The translations under genes and the position numbers were made by a program. Below the pieces are notes generated by a model. It was not told where the DNA came from, did not search any database, and was given only the letters and a program-made list of their open reading frames with translations. From Pseudogymnoascus verrucosus (taxonomy: Eukaryota), in the NCBI GenBank assembly GCA_001662655.1, contig KV460220.1: a DNA stretch of 64,000 nt; one strand, given 5' to 3'. Positions 3,886-37,846 of the stretch are shown piece by piece (position 1 is the first letter of the stretch; each line of letters begins with the position of its first letter).

Positions 3886-4505
3886 GGTTGGTTTATATGG
3901 GGTGTTTAGGAAGTATGGGATGCACTTTCGATGGACGTGCTGGAGCTGGCAAAAGGGATATATTACTGAGCGTGGCGAGGAGTTTGTAAGGATAGATACC
4001 CAAGTACTGTATAATGAATTCTCAATGGCAAGCATGTTATCTTACGCAATCCTCTCCATGTTATTCCTGGCATTCACATTCATAAAACTAGACAAAGACA
4101 GCAAAGACAGCAATAATGGAGTGTAGTGATATTCGTATTTTCAGCTCCCCATCCGATATCTACCTCCAACCCATCCAGCCCTCGGATCCCATAAAGATCA
4201 TGGTATATACCTCATATCTATCTAATCATAACAAATCTTCGCCATAACCAGGCCCCTTCCCGGGTCACTGGCCCACAAAATCCGCTCATATATTCCCAGA
4301 ACGCCAGCCGATATGCTCGCTATACAATAAAAATCAAAACGCTTCATTCAATGCCATCCCAATATCCATCCCATTGTAGTATCAGTATTCCCATTGCCCA
4401 TCTGCACATTGGCAGTTCAACCAGTTTCGAAGCCTCGAAAAACTAGAGGCTTCGTGTGTCGTCTATTCATCGTTTCTCATCGTTCTTGGAGCTGGGGCGA
4501 GTTGA

Positions 4506-4655
4506 TCAGTCGTCGTCGACGAGAGAGTCGCTGCCGCTTGAGCTTGAGCCCTGGCCGCCAGCTGCGTGGATGAGGCGGTGGATGCCGTAGGCGAGAGCGG
4601 TGATGATAATGAAGAGGATGATGATTATCACGGCGATGGTGACGTTTTGTTGCAT
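4506..4655 (-). CDS. Putative 49-aa single-pass membrane microprotein
   Basis: ATG in ACCATG context after a CA-rich leader. MQQNVTIAVIIIILFIIITALAYGIHRLIHAAGGQGSSSSGSDSLVDDD has one hydrophobic helix and a Ser/acidic tail, with C-ending codon bias. Confidence 0.55.
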   Translation of the reverse strand: MQQNVTIAVIIIILFIIITALAYGIHRLIHAAGGQGSSSSGSDSLVDDD

Positions 4656-5249
4656 GGTTGCGGTTGTGTGTGTGTGTAGTTGGGAGATTGAGAGTGTGGA
4701 TTGATAGCTGGAGGAAGGTATGTTAGTGAATGACTCTTTGAAAGGCGGAGTTGAGATGAGGTGGTGGGTGAGGTTGGAGACGTACTGGTTGGTATTCACA
4801 GTACACCTGGTGTAACTGATACTCTCACTCGGCAGGTTAAGCAGTAGCAAGTAGTAATAGCAACAGTAATAAACAATCTCAGACTCTTAATTCAATCCGT
4901 AAAACAGAAGTAAATTGGAGTAGATTATTGACAGCTTATATCAGGGTCTGAAAAGGTGCGGATAGATGGGATGTGCAGTTTTACCCAGCAGTTGGTCCCC
5001 CAAGCAACCTTTTGTACGCTCGTGGTTGCCATAATGATGTGGCAGGGCGAGAACTCGGTTCGCTGGGAAACGGAGGAGGCTGACACGCGAGGCTGGGATG
5101 TGGGGTTGGCCCGGCGCTGGTGGTTGGTACGGGCGGGCGCTAACTTGGTTAGTGGATTTTCACGTGATGAAAGGTACCCCATTAAAATGATAAGTAGAGG
5201 GATTTAGGTGCGTTTGTAGTGTATATGAGGTATAAAAAGTAAATGAGTG

Positions 5250-7985: not shown

Positions 7986-9203
7986 TAGGAGTCCTTGACA
8001 GTAGGCTACTAGCAAGCGACAAAAAGAGGCCTAGTGTAAAACAGCTATGTTGTAATGCTAGGTCTTAACTACAAGACTTATAGAGGTTTCGTTGCGTTAG
8101 TTTACTTAACAGAGGAGGCAGGGGATTAGACATAGAGGCTTTTATAAAACACGTTATAGTATATAACAAAATACTATATTGAGTTGAGCATAAAGCTCCT
8201 ATCTAAGAACTATCTATCTACTTATATAGTAGCGTTATGCTAAAGGGAATAGTTAGAATAGCAGACTCTCTAACTATTCTCACTATTCCTACTAATCTAA
8301 TTACATGTGTGTCCTATAAGAGGTGCTATACTTATTATAGGCACTGTTTCCTATAGGTGCCTTCCTAAGGAGGCACCTTACTCTATATAGGTGCCTTTCC
8401 TAATAGGCACCTCTCCTTTGCTAGGTACCTTCTAAGAAAGGTACCTTTCCCTAGAGGTGCCCTTATTAACTAAGCTACCTATAGTCTCTATGTCCATTTC
8501 CTACTGCTAATTAGCTGTAAGCTATTTTACCTTATTATTCCATCTTATAGCATATGGGTTGCATGTCTTAGCTATAACACTAAGTCCCCTCCCTTAAGGC
8601 CTAGTCCTATAGGCCTTGCTAACTAAGAGTCCCGCTAGCCTACTTAAGCATAGTAGGTCCCTTATATTTATAGGGTAGGTAAGGCCACAACCATGTCTTC
8701 CTCTAAACACTTAAAAATCAAAGAACGTAAACTACTTGCTAACTACATAACCTACGAAGGGGTTGAAATGCCTTCCTGTTCCTACTACGAGAAACGAGGT
8801 CTCTACTACCTTGCTTCTACATCTTTAAAGCAATGTAATGAATGTGTTCGTTCGAATTCTTGCAACTATAACGTCTCTAGCCCTTCTACTAGCAACTAGC
8901 TATAAGAAGGATGCCTCCTTACTTAGGTTAGTTACAGTCGTTACGTGCCGCCCCTAAGACTTAGGGCAGTTATGGTTTAATCGCAACTGCAAGCCTTAGG
9001 CACATAGCGTAAGGAAGCCTTAGGTAAATAGGGGGTTAGTCGTGTTAGAGGAGTTCTAGGTATAGAAGGAAACAGGAACGGAGGGTTCCCCCTTTATCTT
9101 TTTTATATCCTTCGTAGTAGACCTATAGGATTGTACCGACTTCTATCTAACTCGCACTCCTATATGCAATTGCTTGTAATATAGTGCCCTATGTCCTTAC
9201 ATT

Positions 9204-9216
9204 ATACAAAAAAGAT
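9204..9216 (+). promoter_or_regulatory. Self-priming primer-binding site of family B (Tf1/sushi-type)
   Basis: ATACAAAAAAGAT just after the 5' LTR is the exact reverse complement of ATCTTTTTTGTAT inside the LTR (16503-16515; RIP variant at 9096-9108). Confidence 0.7.
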
Positions 9217-12200
9217 TACGCCTGCTAGGGACAGCTGTACTTAAATAATATCCTACAACTAGAACGACTTAGGAGAACTGTTGAAACACCACCGACTGCA
9301 ACTTAGTAACATTTCAAAGTAGAGACCTAACGACTTTAAATAGCTGTAACCCTAGAGAACTTACGGACAACTAGTGGATTAGGGTTTAATCCTATAGAGC
9401 AAGCTAGTAAAGTCGCTAACGTGTTAGCGCTAAATAGGATATGAGATCCTTAAGAACCCCCTTAAGCATAGAGGCAATTGTGAACAAGAGTGTTGATAGC
9501 TACGAGCTACTAGAAGTTAAACTCTTTTGTATTGACACTAATACACCCCTAAACTAATATGAGGAAAATGACCTTAAACATCCCCTAAGACAATGATGGT
9601 TAACTGTTACGAATGTTAACGAGACAAACTACTGCTATAGCTACAACTACTGCACCTACTAATGACATACTAGATTAAATGGCAAACCTTAAGATCTAGA
9701 TGCAAGAGATTAAGGAAATGATAGCTAACCTAGTAGCAACCTAGACTAGAATACTGTCTACGCTACTAGTAGACACCGTTAAAGTTAGGGAGCGACGAAC
9801 TTCCCCTATGCAAAACACCCCTAAGACAGTTTAGTTGCTGCCTCTTTAAAACACTCGTTCTCTATCGATTCTAAGGATGTATTCTAAAGACCCTCTAAAT
9901 CGCTATAAGAAATCCACTATCTCTAAGAAGATTACGCTGCTTAGCAATAGGATAGAACATACCTTTATGCAATAGAGCGTGTCTATTTAGGACCGCCTCG
10001 TAGTTAATGAGGACTACTACCCTACTAACGTCTTAAGAAGAGCGTTAATATAGGGAACTACAACTAGCCTAGTAAAGAAATACCTCGAACCCTAATACCT
10101 GTCTACGACACATAGGTTTCGGAGTGCCGACGAGATAATGGACCTGTTAGGTTTATATTACCTTACTAGCAACAAAACGGAACAGGCCTAGAACCTCTTC
10201 GATGACCTCTAAATAGGAGAGAAAGGACATACAAACGAGACTTTCTTAGAGTTTAAAGCTCGCTTCTAAAGTGCAGCTATTATAGGACAGGTTACTAAGT
10301 TGGAATGGTTTTAGTATATGTAGAACAAGTTAACCCCTCAATTCCATAGCTGCGTAGCGGTTATTAAAAGTTAATGGAAGGGAGACTACTACACTATAGT
10401 CTAAGAACTCACTGCCTTTAATTAGGAGCGGCGCTAGAACAATGAGTTGAGCTTCCTGTCTAAGAGCAGCGAGTCGAGCTCCTAAGGACCCGCCTGCCTA
10501 AGCTCATCTAGGTTTACGCCTATGGACCCTAGAAAGGCCTAGCTACTAAGGTAGACAAGAAACCCTCTAGTTTCCTTCTAGAGGACTCCCTTTACGCCTA
10601 CGGCCCCTAAGCTAGACATTACAGGCTACGTGCAGACCGCTGTGCTAGCTACGTCTAGGAACTGTTTTAAGTGCAGCAAGCTAGGCTATTTCTAAGACAA
10701 ATGCCCGCTTAACCCCACTGTTAAGGAGATTGACGGCGAAGCCCCTAAGGACGAAGAGCAGTAGGAGGAAGCAGTCGCCTACTAGTCGGATGCGTCCCTA
10801 GAGGAAAACGACGAGGCCTAGGGAAAGGCTCCTTCCTAGGTCTATGTAAATGTAATCTATAAGGACTGGATTTATAAGAACTCTTAGGAGGCTCCTAATT
10901 TCTCGTCGATATAACCCTAAGTATAAACGGACTTAGGGTGCAAACGAAGTCACTTGCTAACATAGGAGCAAATGGCTACCTCGTCATTAATAAGCCTTTT
11001 GCGTAACGACTGTCGAAAGCGCTCTAGAGCCCTATACGGAAACTGCCCTACTCTGTACCTATACGTGGATTTCAGCGAAATATCTAAAGCTACGTGTCAG
11101 AGTATATTCAGTTATACTTAACAGTTAAAGGACGCCAAATCTATAACTGCCCCTTTGTGCTCCTAGATCTTAGAGCGCAAGATGTGATAATTAGGAAGAA
11201 GCTTTTTAGCCACTTCTAAATCCTACTCGACTCTACAAAGAGCTAGCTAGTATGGCTAAAGGAGTACCTGCCTACTCCTAGCTAGAGCAAAGAGATTACC
11301 TTGCCCTACTACTTACGTGAACTGTCTATACGTTACCCCGCCTATTAATTAGATGCGAACCAGCAGGATGATGCTATCGACTATAACGACAGATGACGTA
11401 AGGGCAGACGCTCGATGTAAATAAAAGTGATAACGGCCTATTATAACGCCATTATCGTTACCCTACTAAGTACAGTGCGAGACGATAGACCAACTAACCT
11501 ACACCCTAAAACCCTAAGGCTACAGGCCTCGCCTATGGAAACCTATAAAGACAGACCCTCTAAGTAAGCAGAGGCGAATCCTCTAAGAAATAGACTATCC
11601 GCATATAAGAGAAGGAATCATAGGAGAAGCAGAGCTGTCCCTCCCTCCTAACGCTAGACCCTGTTACGCAGCTTTACGCCAGTCTAAATTTATAAGATTA
11701 GTGCAAACGCTTTCTACTATAAGATGATGCGGAGCGACTCCGAGTTCTTTACAACAAGCATCTACGAGATCAACTAGGTCATCTAGGAGAGGGAAGCGGC
11801 TAAGGACAAAGAAACGCTCCGCCTTATTTAGGACAAGCTTCTATAGATGCACCGTAACTATTCCGATGTCTTTTTGAAGTCGGAATCTAATTAGCTTCCC
11901 CTACATTACATATACGATTATAGGATATAGCTAGAAGCCCCTTTACTAAACGCCTTCTTGCTACTATACTAACAAAGCACTGAAGAGCTTAAGGCGACTA
12001 AGTAATACCTATTAGAGAACCTTAAGAAGGGCTTTATAGTCAATAGCAATAGCCCGTTTGCCTCCCCTATACTATTTGTAAAGAAGGTAGATGGCAAACT
12101 GAGATTTTGTATCGACTACTAGAAGTTAAACAGACTAACCTATAACGACCCCTACCCTATCCTACGTATCGACGAACTACTAGGATAGGTAGCAAAAGCA

Positions 12201-14929
12201 AAAATCTTTATAAAGCTAGACATTAGACAAGCCTTCCATTGTATATAAATGGACCCTAACTCTAAAGAGTACACGACCTTTTAGACTCGATATAGATCCT
12301 ACAAATGCAAAGTGCTGCTGTTTAGTCTAACGAATGGCCCCGTAACCTATTAGAGGTATATAAACGACGTTCTTATGTAATACCTAGACGACTTCTATAC
12401 TGCCTACCTAGACGACATACTAATCTACTCTAAGGACCCTATAGAACACGTAGGCTACGTATATAAGGTCCTCTAGCAGCTTTAAGAGGCAGGACTCTAA
12501 GCAGATATAAAGAAATGCAAGTTTAACGTTACTAAGACAAAATACTTAGGTTACATTCTAACCACTTCTAGAGTAGAAGCAGACCCCGACAAAATCGAAC
12601 CGCTCTACAACTAGGTACAACCGACTACTGTTATAGGTGTGAAGTCCTACCTAGGATTTTGTGGTTTCTATAGACAGTTCATCTACAATTTCAGGAAAAT
12701 AGCAAAGCCTCTCACGACTATTACAAGCCCCTTAGAACCGTTTCTATAGACTAACGAATGCGAGAACGCTTTTAAAGAACTGCGCTGACAGCTTTTAGTA
12801 GTATAGGCGCTCTATTACTTCAACCCTAAATTGCCTACAAAGCTAGAAACAGACTCCTCTAATGGAGTAGTAGCTGGGGTTCTATCCTAGGAACACCCTA
12901 AGAAGTAGTGGTATCCTGTAAGCTTCTATAGCTATGTCCTAACTAGACACAAGATCAATTAGGAGATCTACGACAAGGAGTTATTTGCTATTATAAAAGC
13001 GTTTGCGAAATAGAGGCTAGAATTAGCATCGGTACGCCACTGAATCAACGTGTATACTGATTACCGATCTTTAGAATACTTTATGTCAACGAAGGTTCTT
13101 ATAGCAAAGCAGGTTTAGTGGATAGAACTACTCTCCGACTTTAACTTCTACATTACGTATACAGCCGGCAAGAATAACTAGAAGGCCGATATTCTAAGCT
13201 AAAGAGACTAAGACCTAGTAATGTAGCAGAAAGTCAAACTAGATAGTAGAGCGAGGGTATTACTTAGCCTAAGCCGTCTACACCCCTACATTAACGCCAA
13301 ACTAGCAGAGAACTATATAGCTTCTATAAATGCGTTAGACGTTGTGAATGTACAGATGCCCTTCGATCTAATAGAGGCATTGTGCGTAGACAACAAGAGG
13401 TCGTTTAGTAAGACCCGTGTGAAGCAACCCCTACCTAATGGGTTCGCTCTAAGCGACTAGCTTCTTATATACAAGGGTCAGTTATGCGTAAATCGCTATA
13501 CTAACTTATGTACAAAACTGATCTAAGAAGCGTACGATTAGGTGTCATTAGCACACCCTAGCAGCTAAAAAACCTACTAGCTAATCGCTCTAAAGTATCA
13601 CTAGGTAGGTATAGAAGTGGACTGCTTACGGTACGCATAGAACTGTGTGACATGCCGGCTCTCGCACACTAACGTCACTAAGCAGCAAGGTTTCTTACAC
13701 CCCCTACTAGTACCCGAATACCCTATACAACACCTAACGATGGACTTTAAGGAGTTCCTAAAGGATAAGCACAGTTATAACAGCATCTTAGTGTTTATAG
13801 ACCAACTCGGAAAGAGTTTAGTGACTATACTATGCTACAAGACCACTGACGCTAGACAGATGGCATAGTTGTTCATTAAATGGATATACTGATTTAGGCA
13901 CACTCTAGAGTCGATTATTAGCGACCGTAGACCCTAATTTGTGTCGTCTTTCTAGTAGGAGTTCTGCTGAATAATTAGCGTAAAGGTTAAATTGTCGACG
14001 GCTTACTATAAGCAGACTGACGGACAGACGGAAATTATGAACTAGTATATAGACTAGAGACTAAGGCCTTTCGTATCCCATTACTAGGACAATTAGAGCA
14101 AGCTCATTCCTATTATGGACTACGTATAAATGACGCTGCCCTATGCATCTATTAGGATGACTCCCTACCGACTTAAGTACGGAACCAATCTGTGTATAAG
14201 TTAGGATTAGAACACCCTAAAGGCTATCAATCCCTAAGAAACTCTAAATCGCAACGAAGCTAAAGCAGTAGCTACCCGAATGCATAACGCATAGGCTATC
14301 GTAAAGGGAAATATAGCTAAAGTACAGGAAGAGATGTCTAAGCACGCGAATCAACGCTAAAGAGCCGTTGATTAGGACGTAGGTAACAAGGTTTATTTAT
14401 CGACTAAGAACTTAAGAAACTCTCACCCTAGCTGGAAGTTAGGGCAACAATGGGTCGGACCCTATATAGTACTAGAACAAATCAGGTACTCCTTTCGATT
14501 AGACCTACTAAAGGGTTCCTAAATACACGATGTCTTCTCACTAGACGTACTCATTAAGGCCCTAAGCAATCCGCTACCTAGTTAAGCAGCGCCTAAGCTA
14601 AGCAGCGAAGTCGTAGACAGCCTAGAGGAGTAGGAGGTCAAAAAGATTCTCGCTATAAGGATCTAGCGAAAACAACTCTAATACTAGGTATCCTAGGTTA
14701 GATATAATCTAGACCTAGAATGGTACCCTACCTTAAACTTTAAGAACTCCCCCTACAAAATCTAGGAATTCTATACAGAGTACCTAAACCTGCTAGGACT
14801 GCTGTAGGACCTACCTAGTTGGATTACAGAATAGGAGATAGGCGAGCTAAGCTACAATTACGAGAGGCATAGCAAAGTAGGGAAAAACAGCGTCGTTGCT
14901 ACCTACAACACTAAACTAAACACCCTCTA

Positions 14930-15807
14930 AGCTAGGGCACCCTTAGAGCCGTAGCCCTTGTAGAAGCCACCCTTCCTAAACGTCTCACTAGCGTCGCAAT
15001 AAGCGGCTACTACTATAAGAGACGAAGGGTTGAAGTGACCCTACGTAAAAGACTACACCTAAGTTCCCTCTAACACAGGGCCTACCCCCTACTCTCTGTA
15101 AGAGGCCCTAACCCCATTCTCTACCTCCTTCTCCTTCTCCTTCTCTTTCCTGCAGGGGGTAGGCGCTAGGACCAACTTCGCGGCGACGGCAACGACAGCT
15201 ATAGCACCTGCCTCTACTGCGTTCACCACCTCCTTTAGGAGGCTAGGAACCTCCGCCTACTCTGTCTAAAGACAGCGTAGTAACGAACGAACAGCCTAAC
15301 CTAGGTCAGCACCGATACCCTACTAGGAAAGGAGATTCACTTACCTTAAGTCTCAAATTAAGAGACTCAAGGGCTGCGCGAGTTGCGCGGGCCTCCTTAT
15401 AGAGGTCCCGAGTCGCCTCGTCCTAGAACTTAGGGACGGAGGCGGCAGCGAGTAATAGGACGTAGTTAGCCTTAACGGCAGCGGCGACGACGTCGTTAGG
15501 GACGAGGGGGGTGGCTGCCTTAGTAGCGACGATGGTGGCGAACTCAGTCCCTAGGAACTAGGGCAGCTATTCCTACTAAGTCAACACTAAACAAACCTAA
15601 GAACAAGCTAAAAGCAAAACCAAACAGTAATAGGAAACCTACTAGAACATACGTAGAATGCTGCGAAGTGCAGTAACTATACTTCAAGCTAGTTAAGGAC
15701 TAGACATAAGTATAGGCCGCAGCCCTACAGGAAATTGCCTAAAGGCAGTAGACGCATAGGACGCAGAAGGAATCTACTAAAGCCCTAGAGGGCATAGGAA
15801 CCGGCAT
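14930..15807 (-). pseudogene. Intron-containing antisense accessory gene of family B (Cys6 cluster plus Ala-rich helical region); 3' end approximate
   Basis: ATG 15807 (MPVPMPSRALVDSF...) and a Cys cluster at about 15650-15760. Phase-0 introns 15642-15567 (GTAGGT...TAG) and 15344-15296 (GTAAGT...GCTGAC...TAG) keep one frame. A further intron, 15961-15911, lies in the 5' UTR. Internal stops are TAG, as expected from RIP. Confidence 0.65.
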
Positions 15808-18800
15808 CTTTAAATTGGAAATCTACGATTCCTATTAGCCTAGCCTAAGTTATCACTACTGCGCTAGTGCAGTTCCTCAACCTACCGAATCGTTCGAATT
15901 GGTTTTATGTCTAAAAACAATTAATTAGTATCCTCCTCTACGTTTAGGAGGGGCTACTTACTAGTCTTAGAGGGGGGTTTCGGCGTTGTTGTTGTAAAGA
16001 AAACAACAGGAAGTTAGCGAACCTCGATTTCATATTCTAGCTTACAATAAAGCTGTCTAAATTAGGTTTAGCGCGATCTATCTCTCCTTATACAAACAAT
16101 CTAGAGTCTATAGCCCTAATTAGACTCGATTCGATACTAACCCAGACCCTTGCATACAACTTACTACCTTAAACAAAGAAACACCTACTCTTCTACCCTC
16201 CTTAGCGACGACTTAGGCCATAATACCCTCAACTTACACAACAAACTAAACACAGAGTTCTGCGTGCGTGCTTTAAGGACAAAGCACCCTCTAAAGGCAG
16301 GGGGTAGTGTAAGAAGGATGCCTCCTTACTTAGGTTAGTTACGGTTGTTATGTGCTGCCCCTAAGACTTAGGGCGGTTATAGTTTAATTGCGACTGCGAG
16401 CCTTAGGTACATAGCGTAAGGAAGCCTTAGGTAAATAGGGGGTTAGTCGTGTCGGAGGAGTTCTAGGTATAGAAGGAAACAGGAACAGAGGGTTCCCCCT
16501 TTATCTTTTTTGTATCCTTTGTAGTAGACCTATAGGATTGTACCGACTTCTATCCAACTTGCACTCCTATATACAATTGCTCGTGATACGGTGCCCTATG
16601 TCCTTACACTAGCAGTTACTATAGAAAGAAGAAGATCGTCTTCGCCTTAAAACTTACATAACCTATAAAGCTATAGCAACTGCTATAGCGCGTCTTAACT
16701 GCCTTAAGTAATAGTAGGATCTTCTTAAGACCTAAGGTGCTAAGATGCTTCACTACAGTCTAAAGACCCTTAATGAACTAGAGGAGGTAGAAGAACGTAA
16801 GCGGCAAGAAGCCGAAGCCTACAGTCACCTTACTAGTCCTTCTGTAACTAACCCTAGGAGCGCTGCCCCTAAGCACGACTACCTATTAGCTCTTTCTCCT
16901 AGGTTTTTCAACTGCTAGGGTGTCGACGGTAGAACTCCGCTAGCAACTCTAGGCAGCTAAGGTTTCCCCTTAACTCCTATAAGTTGTCCGTAGGTTCGTA
17001 GCCTTTCCATTTTATTAAAAACTCTTCTTAGCATCCTACTAACCTTTTGTCTAGGATCGCCTCGACCTTATATTTAATGATCTCATTCTTAGGTTAGAGT
17101 TTAGCGTTAGTTGCAATTAGAGTATCCCCTCTTACTAGTTCTAATAATAAGATATGAAACACTAGGTAGAGTTTAGAGTTCTTAGGTAGCTGTAGTCTGT
17201 AATTAACTAAGCTGACTTTGTTTAATACCTTAAATGGTCCTAATTTCTTAAAGTCCAACTTTGTACTTAGTCGTTTCGTTTTGATATGTTTTTAGAGTAG
17301 GTATACTTTATCCCCCTCCTTAAAGGCAGGTTCCATACTACACTTCCTGTTTACATATATAGTAGATCGTTCATTTAAGAATTAGATGTCCGTTGCAAGT
17401 TGTTTATAGAACGATTTCAGTTGTTCTACCACAATTAGGGCTTGTTTAGCTCGTGCTTCATCTAGTCTTAGTTGCCTATATACTTCTAGCTAGTAGCTGT
17501 AATTAGCAAAGAACAGTGAGACTTTCGTTGCTTCCGCCATCGCGCTGTTATATATAAACTGTGTAATAGGTAAAATCTAAACCTAATTATCCTGTTAATG
17601 ATTAACATAACTTCGTAGGTACTATTTAAGAGTTTGATTTAATCTTTCTATTTAGCTGTCTATCTAGGGGTAGAAAGCTGTTAATAGCTTGTGATTTGTT
17701 CCTAGTAGAGCCATTAACGATTTCTAGAATTTCGAAGTAAAGAGCTTGTCTCTGTCTAAGATGATTTCTTCTAGCATCCTATGATTAGCTAATATGACTC
17801 GAATGAAGGTATATGCAAGCGCCTTAGCGTTGCTAGCTTCTAGATATAGTACGAATTTCCTATACTTCGTAAGTCTTTCCGTTATAACGAGGATAGAGTT
17901 GTATTCTATTCCTATTAATAGGTCTTTAGAGGGTGGTAGCTTAACGATGAAGTCTAAAGCTATTGATTTCTACGCTCCTTTTAGTACTAGTGTCAACTTA
18001 AGTTGTCTGTAAGGCAAGTGCCTATTAGATTTAGACTTACTACAAATGTTGCACTCTCTTACTACTGTTTCTACCTACTTCCTTATACCTAGGAAGTAGT
18101 AGTGTCTAGTGATTCGTTTAAAGGTTCGTGTTACTCCTTAATGGCCATGTGCTAGCAACGAGTGTTGTTCTTACACTAGCAGGCGTCTCATTTAACTTAG
18201 GACATACACTAATCCCTTATAACGGATCAATCCTTGTTTGTTAATAGCGAAGTTGCCTTTGACTTTAGTTAAGACTCTCTTTACGCATTCGTCTGTTACA
18301 TAAGATTTCTTAAGTCTTTCCTTAAGTTCTATATCTTTAACGATGGAGATCGTTGCTAGCAACTCGTTGTACTGTATTCCTACATCTGTTTTCTTTAATA
18401 TTGCTCTAGGTCTTTCTTCCTTTAGACCGACGTAGTCGGTCCTTCTGCTAAGAGCATCTGCTCTTACGTTCTTAGAGCCCTTACAATAGGTTATTGTGAA
18501 GTTGTAGGCTGCAAGGGTTTCTGCCTAGCAGACTTATCTACAGTTTAAAACTTTAGTTATAGTAAAGTATATGAGGTTCTTGTAATCCGTCTACACTTAT
18601 ATAGTGTAGGTGGATCCCTTAAGATATACTTACTACTGCTTAAAGGCAACGACAATAGCTAGCAGCTCCTTGTCATAGATGTTATAGTTAAGCTCTATAG
18701 GTAACAGTTTCCTAGAGTAGTACGCGATTAGTTTAAACTTACCGTTCTCGTCTAGCTGATTTAGACATGCTCTAATTACGAAGTCTAAAGAGTCTGTCTT

Positions 18801-24800: not shown

Positions 24801-26519
24801 TTGCTAGTACACAGTCATTAGGGAGTAACACGAACCTTTAAACGAATTGCATAACACTACTACTTCCTAGGTCTAAGGAAGTAGGTAGAAACAATTGTGT
24901 TAGGATGTAACATTTGCTAGAAGTTAAAAGTAAATAGACACGCACTATATGGACTTTTAAAGTCCCTACTAACACTAAAACGAGCATGGTCCTTAATAGC
25001 AATTAACTTTATTGTTAAGTTGCTATCATTAAAAGAGCTAATGATAGGATTTGTTATAGACTCTATTATAGTCTCTAACTATAGGCTTACAAAAGAAGCA
25101 CACTTCACGCCGTTTAAAGAAGCGTTAGACGTAAAGGCGTTAGTATATATCTTTCTAAAAGTCATTATCGTAGCGCATAGGCTACTAGACAAGATAATTT
25201 CAGATAGAGATAAGCTCTTTACATCTAAATTCTAGTAGACAGTCATGGCGCAGCTTAGAACAAACTATAAGCTATCTATAGCTTTTCATCTATAAACGGA
25301 TAGACAAACAGAACGAACTAATTAGACGTTAGAGGCGTATCTACAAAGCTACGTTAATGCTAAATAGGACAACTAGGTCTAGTACCTACATTTAGTAGAG
25401 TTTACATATAATTCGTTACCATTAGAGGTAATAAAAGTCTTACCATTCTTTGCTAATAACGGATAGTAACTAGAGGTGTATAAGACGCTAAGACTAGATA
25501 AATTTCGCTCTAAGGAAGGAACGTTAGAAGTATCAAAGATACTTTCCTTCTAGAAACAACTAGTAACGGACATCTAGTTCTTAAATGAACGATCTACTAC
25601 ATATGTAAATAGGAAGTGTAGTATAGAACCTGCCTTTAAGGAGGGGGATAAAGTATACCTACTCTAGAAACACATTAAAACGAAACGACTAAGCACAAAG
25701 TTAGACTTTAAGAAATTAGGACCATTTAAGATATTAGAGAAAGTTAGCTTAGTTAATTACAAGCTGTAGCTACCTAAGAACTCTAAACTCCATCTAGTGT
25801 TTTATGTCTCATTATTAGAACTAGTAAGAGGGGATGCCCTAATTACAATAGATACTGAACTTCAACCTAAAAATGAGATCATTAAATATGAGGTTAAGGC
25901 GATCCTAGACAAAAGGTTAGTAGGATGCTAAGAAGAGTTTTTAATAAAATAGAAAGGTTACGAACCTATAGACAACTCATAGGAGTTAAGGGGAAACCTT
26001 AGCTGCCTAGAGTTGCTAGTAGAGTTCTACCGTTAACACCCTAACAATTAAAGAACCTAGGGAAAAGGGCTAATAGGTAGTTGTACTTAGGGACGGCGCT
26101 CCTAGGGTTAGTTATAGAAGGACTAGCAAGGTGACTATAGGCTTTAGCTTCTTGCTACTTACGTTCTTCTACCTCCTCTAGTTCGTTAAGGGTCTTTAGA
26201 CTATAGCGAAGCATCTTAGCACCTTAGGTCTTAAGGAGATCCTACTACTACTTAAGGCAGTTAAGACAGGCCATAGTAGTTGCTATAGCCTTATAAGTCA
26301 TGTAAGTTTTAAGTTAAAGACGGTCCTCTTCTTTCTATAGCAACTACTAGTTACTAGTAGAGGGACTAGAGACATTATAGTTATAGGAATTTAAACGAAT
26401 ACATTCGTTACATCGTTTTAAGGATGTAGAAGCGAGGTAGTAGAGACCTTGTTTCTTATAGTAGGAACAGGAAGGCATTTTAACCCCTTTGTAGGTTATG
26501 TAGTTAGTAAGTAGTTTAC

Positions 26520-28645
26520 TATAAGAAGGATGCCTCCTTACTTAGGTTAGTTACAGTCGTCACGTGCCGCCCCTAAGACTTAGGGCAGTTATAGTTTAAT
26601 TGCAACTACAAGCCTTAGGTAAATAGGGGGTTAGTTGTGTTAGAGGAGTTCTAGGTATAGAAGGAAACAGGAACGGAGGGTTCCCCCTTTATCTTTTTTA
26701 TATCCTTTATAGTAGACCTATAGGATTGCACTGACTTCTATCTGACTTGCACTCCTATATGCAACTTCTTGTAATATAGTACCCTATGTCCTTACATTAT
26801 ACAAAAAAGATTATGCCTACTAGGGACGGCTGTACTCAAATAATATCCTATAACTAGAACGACTTAGGAGAACTATCGAAACACTACCGACTGCAACTTA
26901 GTGACATTTCGAAGTAGAGACCTAACAACTTCAAATAGCTGTGACCCTAGAGAACTTATAGACAACTAGTAGATTAGGGTTTGATCCTATAGAGCAAGCT
27001 AGTAAAGTTGCTGACGCGTTAGCGCTAAATAGGATACAAGATCCTTAAGAACCCCCTTACGCATAGAGGAATATGTAAACAAGAGTGTTAATGGCTACAA
27101 GCTACCTAGAAATCAAACTCTTCTCTTCTATATCAACTACAACTTAATACACCTCTAAACCATTATGTTGAAGAACTCGACACCTACTACACTTAACAAT
27201 GATGGCTAACTGTCTAGAGCTACAAGACAGACAGTAGCTATTGCCTAAACTGCTCTACCTACTAAGGACATACTAAACTGAATGGTAGTCCTTAAGACCT
27301 AGATGCTAGAGATTAAGGAGCTACTTACAACTCTAGTGGCAAGTTAGACAAGAACCCTACCTACACTAGAGGACACCCCTATACCTACAGAGCGATCTCC
27401 TATACAAAACACCCCTAAGACAGTTTAACTGCCGCCTCTTTAGAACACTCGCTCTCTATTAATTTCAAGGCTGCTGCGAATACCTACTAAAGACCCTCTA
27501 AACTACTACAAGAAATCTATAATCTCTAAGAGGATTACTCCGCTTAGCGATGGGATAGAACACACCTTCCTACAATGGAGCGCGTCGATTTAGGACCGTC
27601 TTATAGTTAATAAGGACTACTACCCTACCGACTTCTCTAGAAGAGCGTTGATTTAGGGAACTACAACTAGCCTTGTAAAAACCTACTTAGAGCCACAATA
27701 CCTATCCGCTACGCATGGGTTCTAGAGTGCAGATGAGATAATGGACCTTCTAGGCTTATACTACCTTACTAGAAACAAGACGGAGCAGGCTTAGAACCTC
27801 TTTAACGACCTATATATAGGAGAGAAGGGACATATAGATAAGACCTTCCCTAAATTTAAAGTACGTTTCTAGGGTGTAGCTATTATAGGACAAGTAGCCT
27901 ACTTAGAATGGTTTTAGTACATGTAGAACAAGTTAACCCCTTAATTCCATAGCTACGTAGCAGTTATCAAAAGTTAATAGAAGGGAGACTACTACACTAT
28001 AGTCTAAGAACTCACTGCCTTCAATTAGGAGCAGCACTAGAACAATGAGCTAGATCCTCCTTGCGTTCCTACTAAATAGACTGCAACTACAGTTACACAG
28101 CCTCTAGATTCTATAGAGGCAGCGACTCTAAATCCCTTCTAAGGAGTATCTGCTACGACTACGAAGCCTTTGTTCTTCCCTAAGCCAACCCTTAAGCGCC
28201 CTCGAGCAACTAGCCTACTTAATGCTACAGTTAGGTACTGTGACCACAACGACCCTAACCTAGAACTAGATAAGCAATAGGAAGTGGCTATTTGATAGAA
28301 CTTCGTGCATTAAGGACAAAGCACCCTCTAAAGGCAGGGGGTAGTGTAAGAAGGATGCCTCCTTACTTAGGTTAGTTACAGTCGTTACGTGCTGCCCCTA
28401 AGACTTAGGGCAGTTATAGTTCAATTGCAACTGCGAGCCTTAGGCACACAGCGTAAGGAAGCCTTAGGTAAATAGGGGGTTAGTTGTGTTAGAGGAGTTC
28501 TAGGTATAGAAGGAAACAGGAACGGAGGGTTCCCCCTTTATCTTTTTTGTATCCTTTGTAGTAGACCTATAGGATTGCACTAACTTCTATCCAACTTACA
28601 CTCCTATATACAACTTCTTATGATACGGTGCCCTATGTCCTTACA
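26520..28645 (+). mobile_element. Element 4: non-autonomous gag-only family B LTR element; TSD TTTAC
   Basis: LTRs at 26520-26796 (24-bp internal deletion) and 28345-28645. TTTAC occurs at 26515-26519 and 28646-28650. The 1.55-kb interior resembles the gag of element 3, then runs directly to the PPT with no pol. Confidence 0.9.
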
Positions 28646-32985: not shown

Positions 32986-33060
32986 GACTTATGGAGTCAC
33001 CCGGTGGAAGGGCTGACAAAAGCCCTTTGTAGGTCCTTCCACCGGGCGACTCCATAAGTC
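32986..33060 (-). repeat. 75-nt hairpin H1, 2 nt after the stop codon of orphan gene A
   Basis: GACTTATGGAGTC...GACTCCATAAGTC, a 26-bp outer stem with one G-U on the minus strand; GGGCT loop on the minus strand. Confidence 0.95.
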
Positions 33061-33062
33061 TA

Positions 33063-34120
33063 TCAGGCGTAATTAGATGCGTCCCATCCTGTCTTCTTGA
33101 CAGTGGTGGTCCCACCAATTGATCTCGTTCGAGAGTGTGTGTCGAAACCGTCGGCTGCCGGAAGTCGTTTCAAGTTCTTGGAAACCTCACCAGCTGGCCC
33201 TCCACCAGGCATAATATAGTAATTATTTCGCACGAACATACGCCCAATCCCGTTCTTATCAATGAAATCCTTGTCGTCTCCTTCCTTCACAGAGATAACA
33301 AATCGGAGGAAGTCATATATGATATGACAGGTCGTAAATCTAAGATATTTACGGAGGTCTATCCGCAATTCCTCTTCCTGCAGGTTGGCGCGTACAGCAT
33401 TATGGAACACAAAGTTGTAAGAGACCGCCTTAAATTGGTCAGAGAACATGAAGTGAATGTGCTCCGGCCGAATGTACTGATTGATAGTACTGATGCGGTG
33501 CAGCTCATCTTCGTGTTGCATCTGCTGAAAAAAATCTCCGGAGTTCATCGCGATGTCAATGACAGAGCAAGACAGGAGGAACCCACGCTCTAACGTCGCA
33601 CGGGTGATTGCGGATGCGTGCTCCTTTAGCTTAGTCTCGTAGAACGCAAACACAGTATCCCTCTTGCCAAACTTAGTAACATGCTTCGGGAAGCAATTGC
33701 GGATTTCACTGGCGGGCATCGAATGGTGCATTAACTCGATCGCTTTCGCAAGCTTGAGGCTGGTCGCTGGCACCGCGATGCTCACGTTCGGCTCCACCGG
33801 GGCTGCCGCTTCTTCTCCATTGCCGAGCCAGTTTCCTGCGATATAGTGGGCCATGGGGATGTAGGTGGGAATATCCAGCTCGTTGTTCTGTTTGATGTTA
33901 GTATGTAGTTTAGTTGGCAATGGAGACATTATCTTACCAGGTTCACTGCGAGGCTTCCGTCAATCTTTGGATCGGACCACACCCCTGCTTTCTTCGATGC
34001 TTGGAGCCTCGTGGCTGTTTTATCGAACAGTTCCTTGGAGGCAAATACGGCATTCTTGTCGAGTTCTGGTTCCTGTCTCGATTCGATCACTTTCAATGGG
34101 GAGTTGGGAGGAGTCGCCAT
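33063..34120 (-). CDS. Orphan protein A, 335 aa; exons 34120-33938 and 33887-33063
   Basis: A 50-nt phase-0 intron, 33937-33888 (GTAAGA...TACTAAC...CAG), joins the 63-aa and 288-aa ORFs. No family recognised. Confidence 0.8.
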
Positions 34121-34429
34121 CTATGTTTGAACTCGTAAGTATAGAACATCTAATAAAAACAATATATATAGCTTACCTTAGACGTGTTTGGGTGATTTGG
34201 GGCAGTGAGGGCTTCTGGAATATTGCGGACAGAGGTTGTTGTGTTGTGGACAATTATTACGAGTAGAAGTTGTAAGCGGGGGTTGTTGTGGGTGGGCTGG
34301 AGGGGGGGTCTAAGCGGGTGAATTTATCACTTAAGTGAATTTGTCTTTGGATAGGGACCAGTGCATACCAATATTCACAGAATAGCACCACCTCTAAAGA
34401 AAAAAAATCCAATCCAATTCATTTACATC

Positions 34430-35410
34430 ATGTACAGTCTTACAAACATTCGAGCGATTACAAACGGGGAGATTTGGGACTTCCCAAACTTCAAATTCGA
34501 ACCATTCAATCCTCTCGACCAGAAGAACGCCCAGAGACTCATATCGCAATACGCCAAAAAGTTGGCCAAGGTAATTTACTTGACAACCCATGATTGCCGA
34601 CAAGAGGAGATCGAAGGATGCCTCCCAATGGAGATTGTCCTGCAGGTGTTCGACGCCAAGACCTGGGAAAGAAACTTGAAGGGGATCCGAGCAGAGCTGC
34701 ACCGGGCCATGCTCACAACTGCACTGGCGGATAAAATTATCCCCAGATGGAAAAATAGGCCAGATTACCCGGTGCAGTCAGGGGCAGCCGAGGGCAAGGA
34801 GGAGGAGAAGGAGAAGGAAGAGAGGATGAGGACCTGGGAGAGGTTTGTGCACGAAGACCCGGATGCAGTAAGATGGTTCGTGGCCCCATTGTGGGAGAGC
34901 GTCGATTTTGACGAAATCTCGTGCGCCGACACTCCCAGGATGGTGACCCTGCACGAATGGATTGCAGCATGCTTGGTTGCGGCGGTTGAGAAGTCCTTCT
35001 CCCTGCAGAGAGGCGCGCGGGACCCAGCCACGGGGAAGATCAAGGGGGGGAACCAGCCCGCCTTTATTATGAACAGGGAATGGGAGGAAATGCCAGACCA
35101 GGAGCCATGGAAGACTCGGCTGGCTGGGATCGCCGTCCCACTGCGCTACAACTTTGGCGGTGGAAACCGTGCGCCCATGAAGCCCATGCCGTCGGTATTC
35201 AATAACTCCGGATTCGCCCAGACACCGCGCAAGACGTCTGGGGGCGGCCAGAGTCTCCCGGGATCCAAAGAGAAGAAAAGGAAGAAGGATAGTCAGAAGG
35301 AGCAGGGCCACAAGAGGAGAGTGAGCAGGTCGGGCGGGGTGATTAGGCAGAACATCATTGTCATGGGAGAGGAGGAGGGGGAGGAGGAGGGGGAGGAGGA
35401 GGAGAAGTAG
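34430..35410 (+). CDS. Orphan protein B, 326 aa, distant paralog of A, with a basic NLS-like patch and acidic tail
   Basis: Intronless ORF, ATG with A at -3. KLAKVIYLTTHDCRQEEIEGCLP aligns with A's KLAKAIELMHHSMPASEIRNCFP. Confidence 0.8.
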   Translation: MYSLTNIRAITNGEIWDFPNFKFEPFNPLDQKNAQRLISQYAKKLAKVIYLTTHDCRQEEIEGCLPMEIVLQVFDAKTWERNLKGIRAELHRAMLTTALADKIIPRWKNRPDYPVQSGAAEGKEEEKEKEERMRTWERFVHEDPDAVRWFVAPLWESVDFDEISCADTPRMVTLHEWIAACLVAAVEKSFSLQRGARDPATGKIKGGNQPAFIMNREWEEMPDQEPWKTRLAGIAVPLRYNFGGGNRAPMKPMPSVFNNSGFAQTPRKTSGGGQSLPGSKEKKRKKDSQKEQGHKRRVSRSGGVIRQNIIVMGEEEGEEEGEEEEK

Positions 35411-35593: not shown

Positions 35594-35668
35594 TACTTAT
35601 GGAGTCGCACGGTGGAAAGGCCGTCGAAGGGCTTTCGCAAGCCTTTCCACCGTGCGACTCCATAAGTA
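35594..35668 (+). repeat. 75-nt hairpin H2, downstream of orphan gene B
   Basis: TACTTATGGAGTCG...CGACTCCATAAGTA, a perfect 28-bp outer stem with GGGCT loop; 61/75 identical to the reverse complement of H1. Confidence 0.95.
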
Positions 35669-35945: not shown

Positions 35946-36695
35946 TCAGTCTAAGTCCGCCTCAGAAGAATCCCCCCCCGTGCCACTCCCTCTATCCCCC
36001 GTGCCGCTCCCTCCTGGCCCATCTTTTCGCCCCCTGCTGACAATGTGTAGCAAATTCAGGAGCAGGGTGTTGGTATATTTTTGTTGAGTAAGAATGTCCT
36101 GTTGGGTGGTGGCGTATGCTTTCCAGAACGCGTCGGTCATCCTCTGATGCTCTCGGGTCGCTTTGATTTCAATATCAACGGCTGCGCGTGCAGATTGGGC
36201 TTCTCTGCGTTCTACTTCGGCTCTCCCCCGCTCGCTCGCCGCCGCTCCCCGCTCACTCGCCGCCGCTCCCCGTTCGGCCGCCGCCCTCCCCCGCTCGCTG
36301 GCCGCTGCTCCCCGCTCGTTGGCCGCCCTCCCCCGCTCACTGGCCGCTGCTCCCCACTCGTTGGCCGCCCTCTCCCGCTCGCCGGCTGCTGCTCCTCGTT
36401 CGGCTGCCGCAGCTCCTCGTTCGGCTGCCGCAGCTCCTCTCTCCGTCCCCGCATCTCTCCGTTCGGCCACCACTGCCGCTGCCTCCGTAGTCGCAGCTGC
36501 TCTCTCTGCAGTTACTACTGGCGGAGTAAGCAAGTCTGCCGCCCATGTACCCGCGAACCATCTCCGGATAAACGCAGTTGAGGATCCAAACATGATCCCT
36601 ATGTGGACAATTATCCCGATGATAAGAGCAGCATACTGCCACTCTAGACTTGGCGCCTGCGATTCGGTAGGTGTTGGCTTAATTGTTGTAGTCAT
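35946..36695 (-). CDS. Membrane-anchored protein with 7-aa ERGAAAA-type tandem repeats (predicted coiled coil), about 249 aa
   Basis: ATG 36695 in ACAATG context, a hydrophobic segment YAALIIGIIVHIGIMFG, and about 12 copies of a 21-nt repeat at about 36200-36460. Confidence 0.7.
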   Translation of the reverse strand: MTTTIKPTPTESQAPSLEWQYAALIIGIIVHIGIMFGSSTAFIRRWFAGTWAADLLTPPVVTAERAAATTEAAAVVAERRDAGTERGAAAAERGAAAAERGAAAGERERAANEWGAAASERGRAANERGAAASERGRAAAERGAAASERGAAASERGRAEVERREAQSARAAVDIEIKATREHQRMTDAFWKAYATTQQDILTQQKYTNTLLLNLLHIVSRGRKDGPGGSGTGDRGSGTGGDSSEADLD

Positions 36696-36829
36696 TGTTA
36701 ATGTATGTGTAGTAAAGTAAGCTGTTCGTCCTCTTTGTTTGTCTTCTTCAACTTCTTCAGACCACATAGTTGGGTTTTGAATGCATGGCGAGACACTTAA
36801 AAAGGGGGAAGGAACGACCGTATACCTCA

Positions 36830-37846
36830 TTATATCAGCGCACTTTTAAACATTTCTGCTTTATATTTCGGTGTCAGCAGCTGTATAATATCAATATCTC
36901 CTCCCTCATATGTAGCTTTAATAGATCCTGCGTCAAATGGTACTGGATCGCCCCAATAACCATGTACATGACTTCTATATTTGATGTCTAGCGGGTTCCG
37001 GCCCTCGCCCAAGTCCAACCAACACGTTATTATCAACGCTACGCCATGACCAAAAAAGTCCATGGCGTCAATCTGGATCTCAGTTGGGCAGGTGTCGCAT
37101 TGGAACAGGCCCGCGCAAGTTAGGCAGTTGAGCTGTGGATTGTTCCAATGGCTTGCTCGACATGTCAACCTCCTCCTTAATTCTATCGATTGTCCATACG
37201 GCACTACAAAATGCCAGTGTGGACAAATGTTTGCATAGACTTTTTTAGGGACCTCTACCTTCTTCCCAACCGGGAGAAGGAGCCAGATTTGATGGCGTAG
37301 TAAAAACCTGCCGTCTGTAATTCGGGGGGTAAACTCCTCGTGGTTCACATGCTTAGTGTCGGAAACACTGCGTCTTGGAAAACTGTAGAATCTAGATAGT
37401 GAAGATAGTAGCTTGCCGTAGTCAAGGCCGCTACGATACAGCTTCATAACCAAGAAAAATGTGACAGAGGTGAATCCTCTGCATATATGCCAATGGACAG
37501 ATGATGCACAATCTGCCATCGTGCATGGTGATCGACTATTTACTTGCTGTGCTCGACTATGGAGAATCTCACAATCAAGGCACAGGATGTGCCGTGGTAG
37601 ATCTCTCTGTAGGATATCCAGGAAAACTGGTCTATCGAGTCCATCTTGCTGATCTTCCCGAAGCCGATCAAGGTACTGGCTCCCCAGAATAAACCAGACC
37701 GAACGACAGGTCAAAGTAAACGAGACGGCGGCTGAGAGAGGGAGGAAGGTAGCTATCGACTTGATAATCTCGACGGGTAACTGCTTTAAAAGCGCTCGTG
37801 TGTCTGTCTTCCCGGTTTGGAAATGGGATGCTGGTGGGGACGCCAT
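36830..37846 (-). CDS. F-box domain protein, 338 aa
   Basis: N-terminal LLKQLPVEIIKSIATFLP...F.LTCR F-box motif, CxxC motifs, and a C-terminal C..CPTE....WLDLG pattern seen in fungal F-box proteins. Confidence 0.8.
   Translation of the reverse strand: MASPPASHFQTGKTDTRALLKQLPVEIIKSIATFLPLSAAVSFTLTCRSVWFILGSQYLDRLREDQQDGLDRPVFLDILQRDLPRHILCLDCEILHSRAQQVNSRSPCTMADCASSVHWHICRGFTSVTFFLVMKLYRSGLDYGKLLSSLSRFYSFPRRSVSDTKHVNHEEFTPRITDGRFLLRHQIWLLLPVGKKVEVPKKVYANICPHWHFVVPYGQSIELRRRLTCRASHWNNPQLNCLTCAGLFQCDTCPTEIQIDAMDFFGHGVALIITCWLDLGEGRNPLDIKYRSHVHGYWGDPVPFDAGSIKATYEGGDIDIIQLLTPKYKAEMFKSALI

What the first reader, a model, noticed from the sequence alone, without database searches (positions are those of the whole stretch)
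14930..15961. Family B carries a spliced antisense gene with its own Cys6 cluster
Seen: three canonical introns lie on the minus strand inside an LTR retrotransposon, and the two coding ones preserve frame. The inferred pattern is C-x2-C-x12-C-x8-C-x2-C-x6-C, followed by an Ala-rich helical region and a KEKEKE tract. Introns can persist because they are antisense to the genomic RNA. I see no nucleotide similarity to the family A gene, yet position, orientation and Cys architecture are parallel. Inference: a recurrent class of chromovirus accessory genes that I do not know to be characterised.
Basis: partly seen in the sequence, partly recalled or inferred. Interest (0 to 1): 0.7.

Follow-up and report, generated by a model that had tools for sequence, protein, structure and literature searches.

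The report
Spliced antisense gene in fungal retrotransposon
A mutation-wrecked fungal jumping gene carries, backwards behind its own genes, the remains of a real intron-containing extra gene for a small six-cysteine, probably zinc-binding protein; relatives keep it intact and appear to swap it between nearly identical elements, but what it does is untested.

Summary
Largely confirmed. A RIP-damaged chromovirus (window 8901-16608, genus Pseudogymnoascus by closest hits) carries a minus-strand gene between pol and the 3' LTR. It has four introns, not three: two upstream of the ATG, two coding and in frame. Only 3 of 6 cysteines survive here, but intact natural homologues have exactly the inferred C-x2-C-x12-C-x8-C-x2-C-x6-C spacing. 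In metagenomes, 9 of 9 loci long enough to tell (8 distinct elements) place the homologue antisense behind a related pol, and its coding sequence is under purifying selection. The fold resembles Zn2Cys6 (weak scores; Pfam not met). KEKEKE is not conserved. Two additions: two subfamilies share nearly identical gag and chromodomain but differ by 19-24% transversions across this gene, which points to cassette swapping; and a single-copy, pol-free gene in the same genome has the same motif and first intron position. Best guess: an element-encoded nuclear regulator acting on its own LTR (about 0.5; inferred). Antisense accessory genes are already known (Botrytis brtn; paper not readable here), and this scan has noted similar genes in other genomes. 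Verdict: new variant of a known kind.

The parts
8901..16608 (+). Family B (subfamily B1) Ty3/gypsy chromovirus, full length, RIP-damaged; 5-bp target-site duplication CTAGC at 8896-8900 and 16609-16613
8901..9201 (+). 5' LTR
9400..14930 (+). gag-pol remains (protease, RT, RNase H, integrase, chromodomain near 14620-14780); limits approximate
   Evidence: translations printed; 75% to copy L029; Pfam domains on intact relatives L071, L072
14931..15088 (.). Spacer between pol and the antisense gene; almost identical in B1 and B2; holds the motif AGGCCCTGT (minus strand, 15083-15075) shared with metagenome elements L071, L072/L075, L078
15089..15295 (-). Coding exon 3 (69 codons): end of long helix, then charged tail with KEKEKE; last TAG is the probable stop
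15296..15344 (-). Intron 4 (49 nt, phase 0; GTAAGT...GCTGAC...TAG)
15345..15566 (-). Coding exon 2 (74 codons): Ala-rich helices with the conserved PKF motif
15567..15642 (-). Intron 3 (76 nt, phase 0, directly after C-x-P/L); a second AG at 15573 is also in frame, intact homologues favour 15567
15643..15807 (-). Coding exon 1 (55 codons): MPVP leader and C-x2-C-x12-C-x8-C-x2-C-x6-C cluster; three positions read Tyr here
15823..15885 (-). Intron 2 (63 nt), probably 5' UTR
   Evidence: gene model P0002 is consistent with the same junctions
15911..15961 (-). Intron 1 (51 nt), probably 5' UTR
16308..16608 (+). 3' LTR; the antisense promoter is inferred to lie in it or just inside it
   Evidence: promoter is inference
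8693..8900 (+). Family A antisense gene, 5' part with its Cys6 cluster; split by the family B insertion and continuing at 16609 to about 16950

Best explanation
A lineage of ascomycete chromoviruses carries a third gene, antisense, between pol and the 3' LTR. Shown: the gene, its exon structure, its lineage-wide position and purifying selection. The element's genomic RNA runs on the other strand, so the introns are not spliced from it and are copied intact (established retroelement biology). Inferred: a promoter in or near the 3' LTR makes a spliced mRNA for a protein of about 200 residues with a variant Zn2Cys6 cluster, a helical linker, a long helix that probably dimerises and a basic tail that probably targets the nucleus. 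Most likely it binds DNA of its own element family (LTR or spacer) and sets that family's transcription, as an activator or as a copy-number brake. Subfamilies exchange the cassette by recombination. The window copy is dead (RIP).
For: Exons match intact proteins in the predicted frames only; annotators spliced P0001/P0002/P0004 at the same coding junctions. 9 of 9 informative metagenome loci are tail-to-tail with pol, 52-65% identical to family B pol in 7 of them against 31-36% to A-type pol. GT follows C-x-P in 10 of 10 loci with an intact motif. dN 0.00 against dS 0.16 for L072/L075, and dN<dS in 36 of 36 pairs. The Cys-domain model matches only Zn2Cys6 DNA-binding domains: 10 of 10 Foldseek rows (Leu3, Pho7, GAL4, Put3, 1cld) and 3 of 3 VIA rows. 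Arg20 and Lys42 are invariant and Arg23 nearly so in A1. Full model pLDDT 83 with helix 108-183. Basic tails such as KKRKR occur in many homologues.
Against: Fold scores are weak (E 2.3-7.2; Z 2.0-2.9). Pfam Zn_clus hits 0 of 42 members. The first loop is 11-17 residues instead of 6, which alters the part that Gal4-type proteins use to read CGG (recalled), and some homologues have Ala at the second Cys position (P0042, P0045, L083-L085). No binding site stood out: 9-mers shared between upstream regions of 4 elements were dominated by one LTR-end motif that may serve priming. Splicing rests on sequence signals and gene models, not cDNA. No functional data exist.
Confidence: 0.5

Rival explanations
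1. Family-specific anti-silencing factor: the protein binds its own elements and blocks or removes host heterochromatin marks, as VANC proteins do for plant VANDAL transposons (recalled). Cassette swapping would then be an arms-race signature.
For: Cassette diverged 19-24% (transversions) on a backbone with 0.2-0.4% in gag and chromodomain, with a sharp edge at about 15090; several cassette types of 35-60% identity exist within Pseudogymnoascus; the elements lie in RIP-marked DNA.
Against: All 12 copies examined were hit by RIP; exon 1 is about as conserved as the 3' part of pol among distant elements (38-65% against 57-73%), which is not what fast adaptive evolution predicts; no test of methylation.
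Confidence: 0.2
2. A protein- or RNA-binding helper of the particle or integration complex (nuclear import, packaging, target-site choice); the zinc cluster is structural rather than a DNA reader.
For: Enlarged first loop and variable second Cys; long helix and basic tail fit an adaptor; cassette type co-varies with the RNase H-integrase segment (5.8% transversions between B1 and B2, 0-1% within).
Against: All structural neighbours of the domain are DNA-binding domains; co-variation with integrase can be plain linkage in two subfamilies.
Confidence: 0.15
3. The cassette defines exclusion or incompatibility groups: each allele represses or excludes elements with another allele, or biases transmission of the chromosomes that carry it.
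For: Two very different alleles coexist on one backbone in this genome, and both types also occur among P. destructans proteins, as in long-lived balanced polymorphisms.
Against: B1 and B2 elements lie side by side on one contig (C51); ordinary template switching between co-packaged RNAs gives mosaics without selection, and pol is mosaic too.
Confidence: 0.08
4. A captured host gene carried as a passenger, or a locus whose antisense RNA matters and whose protein does not.
For: A single-copy, pol-free gene with the same motif and first intron position lies in this genome (L061), so a host source is plausible.
Against: Present in 8 distinct distant elements with purifying selection on the protein; frames and Cys positions kept while introns diverged.
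Confidence: 0.07

Closest known systems
brtn, antisense gene of Boty-like Ty3/gypsy elements of Botrytis cinerea and Sclerotinia (Zhao et al. 2011, PMID 21802103; paper not held; seen only through passages of PMC7264820, PMC8365987, PMC4227169, PMC5987419)
   Same: Antisense extra gene between pol and the 3' LTR (PMC7264820) of a chromodomain-bearing fungal gypsy element (PMC4227169); function unknown.
   Different: No BRTN sequence was available. The family A profile hits a B. cinerea protein (ACHAP3_005898, 38%, on 12 contigs) that may be BRTN but is not so named. The family B search gave no Botrytis or Sclerotinia name among the 23 of 50 hits that were traced. B has coding introns, a longer first loop and another pol lineage.
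Gal4-type Zn2Cys6 binuclear cluster factors (PF00172; Gal4, Leu3, Ppr1, Put3, Pho7)
   Same: Six Cys as two CxxC-helix halves, basic residues after the second Cys, a Lys before the fourth, a long helix downstream; only structural neighbours found. UniRef labels some members 'Zn(2)-C6 fungal-type domain'.
   Different: First loop 11-17 residues, Pfam not met, about 200 residues with no middle homology region, element-encoded.
Plant antisense aORFs (Grande gene23, RIRE2, Retand TRP28; passages of PMC7264820 and PMC11963269)
   Same: Same position and orientation; nuclear localisation or predicted DNA binding; regulatory role proposed but untested.
   Different: Non-chromovirus plant lineages; no Cys6 cluster is mentioned in the passages read.
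Family A-type antisense gene of this genome
   Same: Position, orientation, Cys6 plus long helix; Cys domains align (hhalign 80%, E 1.5e-5 pairwise).
   Different: No coding introns, C-x2-C-x6-C-x8-C-x2-C-x6/7-C, weak Zn_clus hits (E 0.02-0.4), separate pol clade.

Membership tests
Chromovirus (Ty3/gypsy) | LTRs with target-site duplication | tested here: met
   301-nt LTRs, CTAGC duplication
Chromovirus (Ty3/gypsy) | PR-RT-RH-IN order with C-terminal chromodomain | tested here: met
   Pfam on intact relatives L071/L072 (Chromo E 5.6e-5 and 1.2e-3, below the curated cut-off); window pol aligns with them; the window's damaged chromodomain alone gave no Pfam hit
Antisense accessory ORF of LTR retrotransposons (aORF-3R) | Antisense, between pol and 3' LTR | tested here: met
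Antisense accessory ORF of LTR retrotransposons (aORF-3R) | Present in most family copies and conserved as protein | tested here: met
   12 copies in the genome; 9 of 9 informative metagenome loci; dN<dS
Antisense accessory ORF of LTR retrotransposons (aORF-3R) | Transcribed (and here spliced) | tested here: inconclusive
   see Tried and rejected
brtn/BRTN | Sequence homology to BRTN | not testable with these tools
   paper not held; no record named BRTN
Zn2Cys6 (PF00172) | Six conserved Cys in two CxxC pairs | tested here: met
   C18, C46, C53 invariant, C21, C34, C43 in at least 90% of 22 sequences (members were chosen partly for having the domain)
Zn2Cys6 (PF00172) | C-x2-C-x6-C spacing and Pfam score | tested here: not met
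   first loop 11-17; 0 of 42 members hit Zn_clus at E<=0.5
Zn2Cys6 (PF00172) | Binuclear-cluster fold | tested here: inconclusive
   all 13 rows of two searches are Zn2Cys6 or the like-titled 1cld, but E>=2.3 and Z<=2.9
Zn2Cys6 (PF00172) | Binds two zinc ions and CGG-type DNA sites | not testable with these tools
   needs bench work

The most novel reading that the evidence does not exclude
Ascomycete chromoviruses carry, in at least two independent pol lineages, their own Zn2Cys6-derived nuclear regulators. The spliced type came from an intron-bearing host gene family (a free-standing relative survives in this genome) and is exchanged as an allelic cassette between otherwise near-identical elements, each allele defining which element family it switches on, silences or shields from host silencing: a fungal counterpart of retroviral accessory genes with swappable specificity.
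Probability: 0.2. Interest if true: 0.8.

Novelty: new variant of a known kind. Interest (0 to 1): 0.5.

Why it matters
Gag and pol are taken to be enough for LTR retrotransposons, and the role of antisense extra genes is an open question (PMC7264820). Here the extra gene has a recognisable candidate fold, intact natural versions, and two natural alleles on one backbone, which makes DNA binding and allele specificity directly testable. It also explains many 'hypothetical' or 'Zn(2)-C6' gene models in Pseudogymnoascus as transposon products rather than host transcription factors.

Tried and rejected
RNA evidence: no RNA holder listed (17 runs, none on record as RNA). Four runs were laid as contigs (3 guessed RNA, 1 unknown): no joint matched a predicted intron and the listed contigs run through introns unspliced; these may be DNA or the element's sense RNA, so this says nothing either way. 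Homodimer prediction: no answer, score 0.02. Pfam on the damaged window exons: 0 families for 8 queries, one of which had wrong coordinates. Full-length fold search was filled by the long helix (best Z 7.0, generic coiled coils). PDB sequence search: one chance-level hit, PPAR-gamma, E 0.3. ESM Atlas: unnamed Ascomycota clusters by features, Zn2Cys6 clusters by structure at TM<0.5. Rfam: 0 matches on 5 loci. Donor at 15652 rejected (phase 2, frame lost). Exon 3 in the poly-Arg frame rejected (many stops, no homologue). Discarded numbers: pol dN/dS columns (out of frame; redone as identities) and B2-B2 cassette values (projected through a B1 reference; redone directly). Literature searches listed no paper describing a spliced Cys6 antisense gene in fungal elements; the library lacks most subscription papers, and Fig. 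S1 of PMC8365987, which draws extra ORFs of Botrytis elements, was not readable as text. Sequence look-up in earlier findings was empty, as was the look-up in this genome.

Full report
Setting. Window 5000-31000 is an AT-rich nest of LTR elements with a RIP signature (TpA/ApT about 2). The closest protein hit is 95% identical and comes from Pseudogymnoascus sp. VKM F-103, so the genome is taken to be Pseudogymnoascus. The element in question spans 8901-16608 with a perfect CTAGC target-site duplication. Its LTRs differ by 23 transitions and no transversion in 302 nt: a young insertion, then RIP. It landed inside the antisense gene of a family A element, just after that gene's Cys cluster.

The gene. 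On the minus strand there are four introns: 15961-15911 and 15885-15823 upstream of the ATG (15807), 15642-15567 and 15344-15296 in the coding part, both phase 0. The three coding exons give about 198 codons. All seven in-frame stops are TAG, the last being the probable true end. Three of six Cys positions read Tyr. The DNA search of the genome gave 28 matches, resolving into 4 B1 copies and 8 B2 copies that could be scored, plus fragments (L005, L024, L026, L016, L032, L038, L060) left out of the tallies. Splice dinucleotides hold in 16 of 16 donors and 15 of 16 acceptors in B1 and 31 of 31 each in B2; all 72 Cys-position codons are Cys (38) or Tyr (34). Copies within a subfamily are young relatives, so this conservation alone is weak; the weight comes from comparison between subfamilies and with distant elements. 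Four intron-like units in 882 nt were reached by 0 of 2000 shuffles.

Intact homologues. P0001 (208 aa) is an intact B2-type protein whose gene model is spliced at both coding junctions inferred here; P. destructans has both B2-type (P0002, P0004) and B1-type proteins (P0016, P0020, P0058-61). B1-type proteins have exactly C-x2-C-x12-C-x8-C-x2-C-x6-C, B2-type have x15. The window's exons match these in the predicted frames only. A phmmer search of 1.84 billion representatives gave 50 hits at E<=0.001; of 23 traced, named ones beyond the genus are Stipitochalara, Diplocarpon, Cadophora and Didymella. Their genomic context could not be read. Among sequences with an intact motif the commonest spacing is 2-11-9-2-6. 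These are automatic gene models, not cDNAs.

Position in distant elements. A metagenome scan with the distant group gave 16 loci from 433 pattern matches. Nine have at least 1.5 kb downstream and all nine carry pol on the opposite strand, tail to tail; the other seven have under 1 kb and cannot tell. The nine are 8 distinct elements (L072 and L075 are near copies). Pol is 52-65% identical to family B pol in seven, 38-56% in pieces or 43% in two damaged ones, against 31-36% to an A-type pol. L071 and L072 have uninterrupted pol frames with RT, RNase H, integrase and chromodomain. A GT donor follows C-x-P in 10 of 10 loci whose motif is intact; 9 of 9 examined have a 45-54 nt intron there. Several also show introns just upstream of the ATG (read by eye). 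Selection: L072/L075 have dN 0.00 and dS 0.16 over 115 codons; dN<dS in all 36 pairs, dS mostly saturated. On a pol tree of 9 rows, spliced-type and intronless-type elements fall on either side of a 100/100 branch (midpoint root, no outgroup).

Cassette exchange. Counting transversions only, which RIP does not make, B1 and B2 differ by 0.2-0.3% in gag, about 1% in PR-RT, 5.8% in RH-IN, 0.4-0.7% in the chromodomain, 0-0.3% in pol tail plus spacer, 6% in the LTR, but 19-24% plus many gaps across the antisense coding cassette; within a subfamily the cassette differs by 0-2.4%. The edge is sharp, at about 15090, beside a motif AGGCCCTGT that L071, L072/L075 and L078 share. Among distant elements exon 1 (38-65%) is nearly as conserved as the 3' part of pol (57-73%), so a faster rate cannot explain the B1/B2 contrast; recombination between lineages can. 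Gene models of at least three cassette types read on into the same spacer (P0010, P0016, P0011/P0032). Against over-reading: pol is itself mosaic, so swapping may be neutral.

A free-standing relative. G000:C7 (L061, about 3960-4780) has an undamaged gene with C-x2-C-x12-C-x8-C-x2-C-x6-C, a GTGAGT donor right after C-E-P, a helical second exon and a basic tail. It aligns to the B profile over the Cys domain (hhalign 95%), is single copy, has no pol within the 10 kb fetched and lies among ordinary genes and a DUF7924 frame. It is either a member of the host family from which the cassette was captured or a domesticated copy; the direction is not resolved.

Protein. The AlphaFold model of P0001 (pLDDT 83) has a Cys domain, two helices and a long helix 108-183. 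Folded alone, the Cys domain matches only Zn2Cys6 DNA-binding domains: 10 of 10 Foldseek rows (E 2.3-7.2) and 3 of 3 VIA rows (Z 2.0-2.9). Pfam Zn_clus hits 0 of 42 members, whereas family A-type proteins hit it weakly (4 of 5, E 0.02-0.4). So it works, if at all, like a Zn2Cys6 protein but is not a Pfam member. KEKEKE is subfamily-specific; the shared feature is a basic patch followed by an acidic tail.

Mechanism. Shown: gene, position, inheritance with one pol lineage, selection on the protein, mosaicism. From established biology: antisense introns escape splicing of the genomic RNA. Inferred: antisense promoter near the 3' LTR, zinc binding, dimerisation, nuclear import, binding to the element's own DNA, control of its transcription (0.5). 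Rivals: anti-silencing factor (0.2), particle or integration helper (0.15), exclusion alleles (0.08), passenger or RNA-only role (0.07).

Known relatives. The antisense gene brtn of Botrytis and Sclerotinia Boty elements occupies the same position (passages of PMC7264820; PMC8365987; PMC4227169; PMC5987419); the original paper was not held, so whether brtn has introns or a Cys cluster was not seen. The family A profile gave 178 hits, 120 listed, including a multi-copy B. cinerea protein, which makes family A the likelier brtn relative. Plant Retand and Grande antisense ORFs are analogous (passages of PMC11963269). Passages of PMC3248453, a survey of fungal LTR elements, hold no 'zinc' or 'antisense'. 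Nine literature searches listed no description of this spliced type. This scan has recorded similar genes in other genomes (8 notes listed); those are unchecked AI notes and were not used as support.

Verdict. Observation partly confirmed (four introns; Cys pattern right but half erased here; KEKEKE incidental). Interpretation partly supported. New variant of a known kind; interest 0.5.

Noticed in passing
L061 (G000:C7:348000-357999), about 3960-4780 +: Single-copy, undamaged, pol-free gene with the same Cys6 spacing and first intron position as the family B gene; a perfect 60-nt palindrome and a 120-nt low-copy repeat lie upstream.
   Followed up: partly
window 8693-8900 and 16609-16950 (+); about 26000-26550 (-): Family A antisense gene. 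Both family A copies in the window were hit by family B insertions within about 170 nt of each other, in or at the start of this gene.
   Followed up: partly
L062, L063, L064, L065, L068, L069: Further gypsy families in this genome with intronless antisense C-x2-C-x6-C-x8-C-x2-C-x6-C plus coiled-coil genes; pol seen in five of these six loci.
   Followed up: partly
window 15083-15075 (-) and L071:3547, L072:1273, L075:909, L078:2365: Conserved motif TAGGCCCTGT-x-TCGG at the end of the antisense gene, with further short conserved blocks in the spacer; absent from L070, L080, L083, L085; no Rfam match.
   Followed up: partly
LTRs of L071, L072, L083 and L030: A motif GCATATGGGAGTGCG (antisense reading) is identical in four distant elements near the LTR 3' end; may belong to Tf1-like self-priming (recalled, not tested).
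   Followed up: no
window 12400-14400: The RNase H-integrase segment differs by 5.8% transversions between B1 and B2 while its flanks are nearly identical: a second recombination block.
   Followed up: partly
window 32987-33059 and 35595-35667: Two 73-nt near-palindromic repeats flank two divergent frames (33063-33959 minus, 34355-35410 plus) with no Pfam match.
   Followed up: no
window 36182-36475: 21-nt tandem repeat coding an Ala/Glu/Arg-rich helical repeat in frame 35946-36845 (minus); no Pfam match.
   Followed up: no
window 54150-58358 (-): 1402-codon frame with two pectate-lyase-like domains and Cys-rich repeats, probably a secreted glycoside hydrolase.
   Followed up: no
L060 (G000:C17:454549-454900): Isolated damaged fragment of a B2-like exon 1 and intron joined to part of an LTR among host genes.
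   Followed up: no
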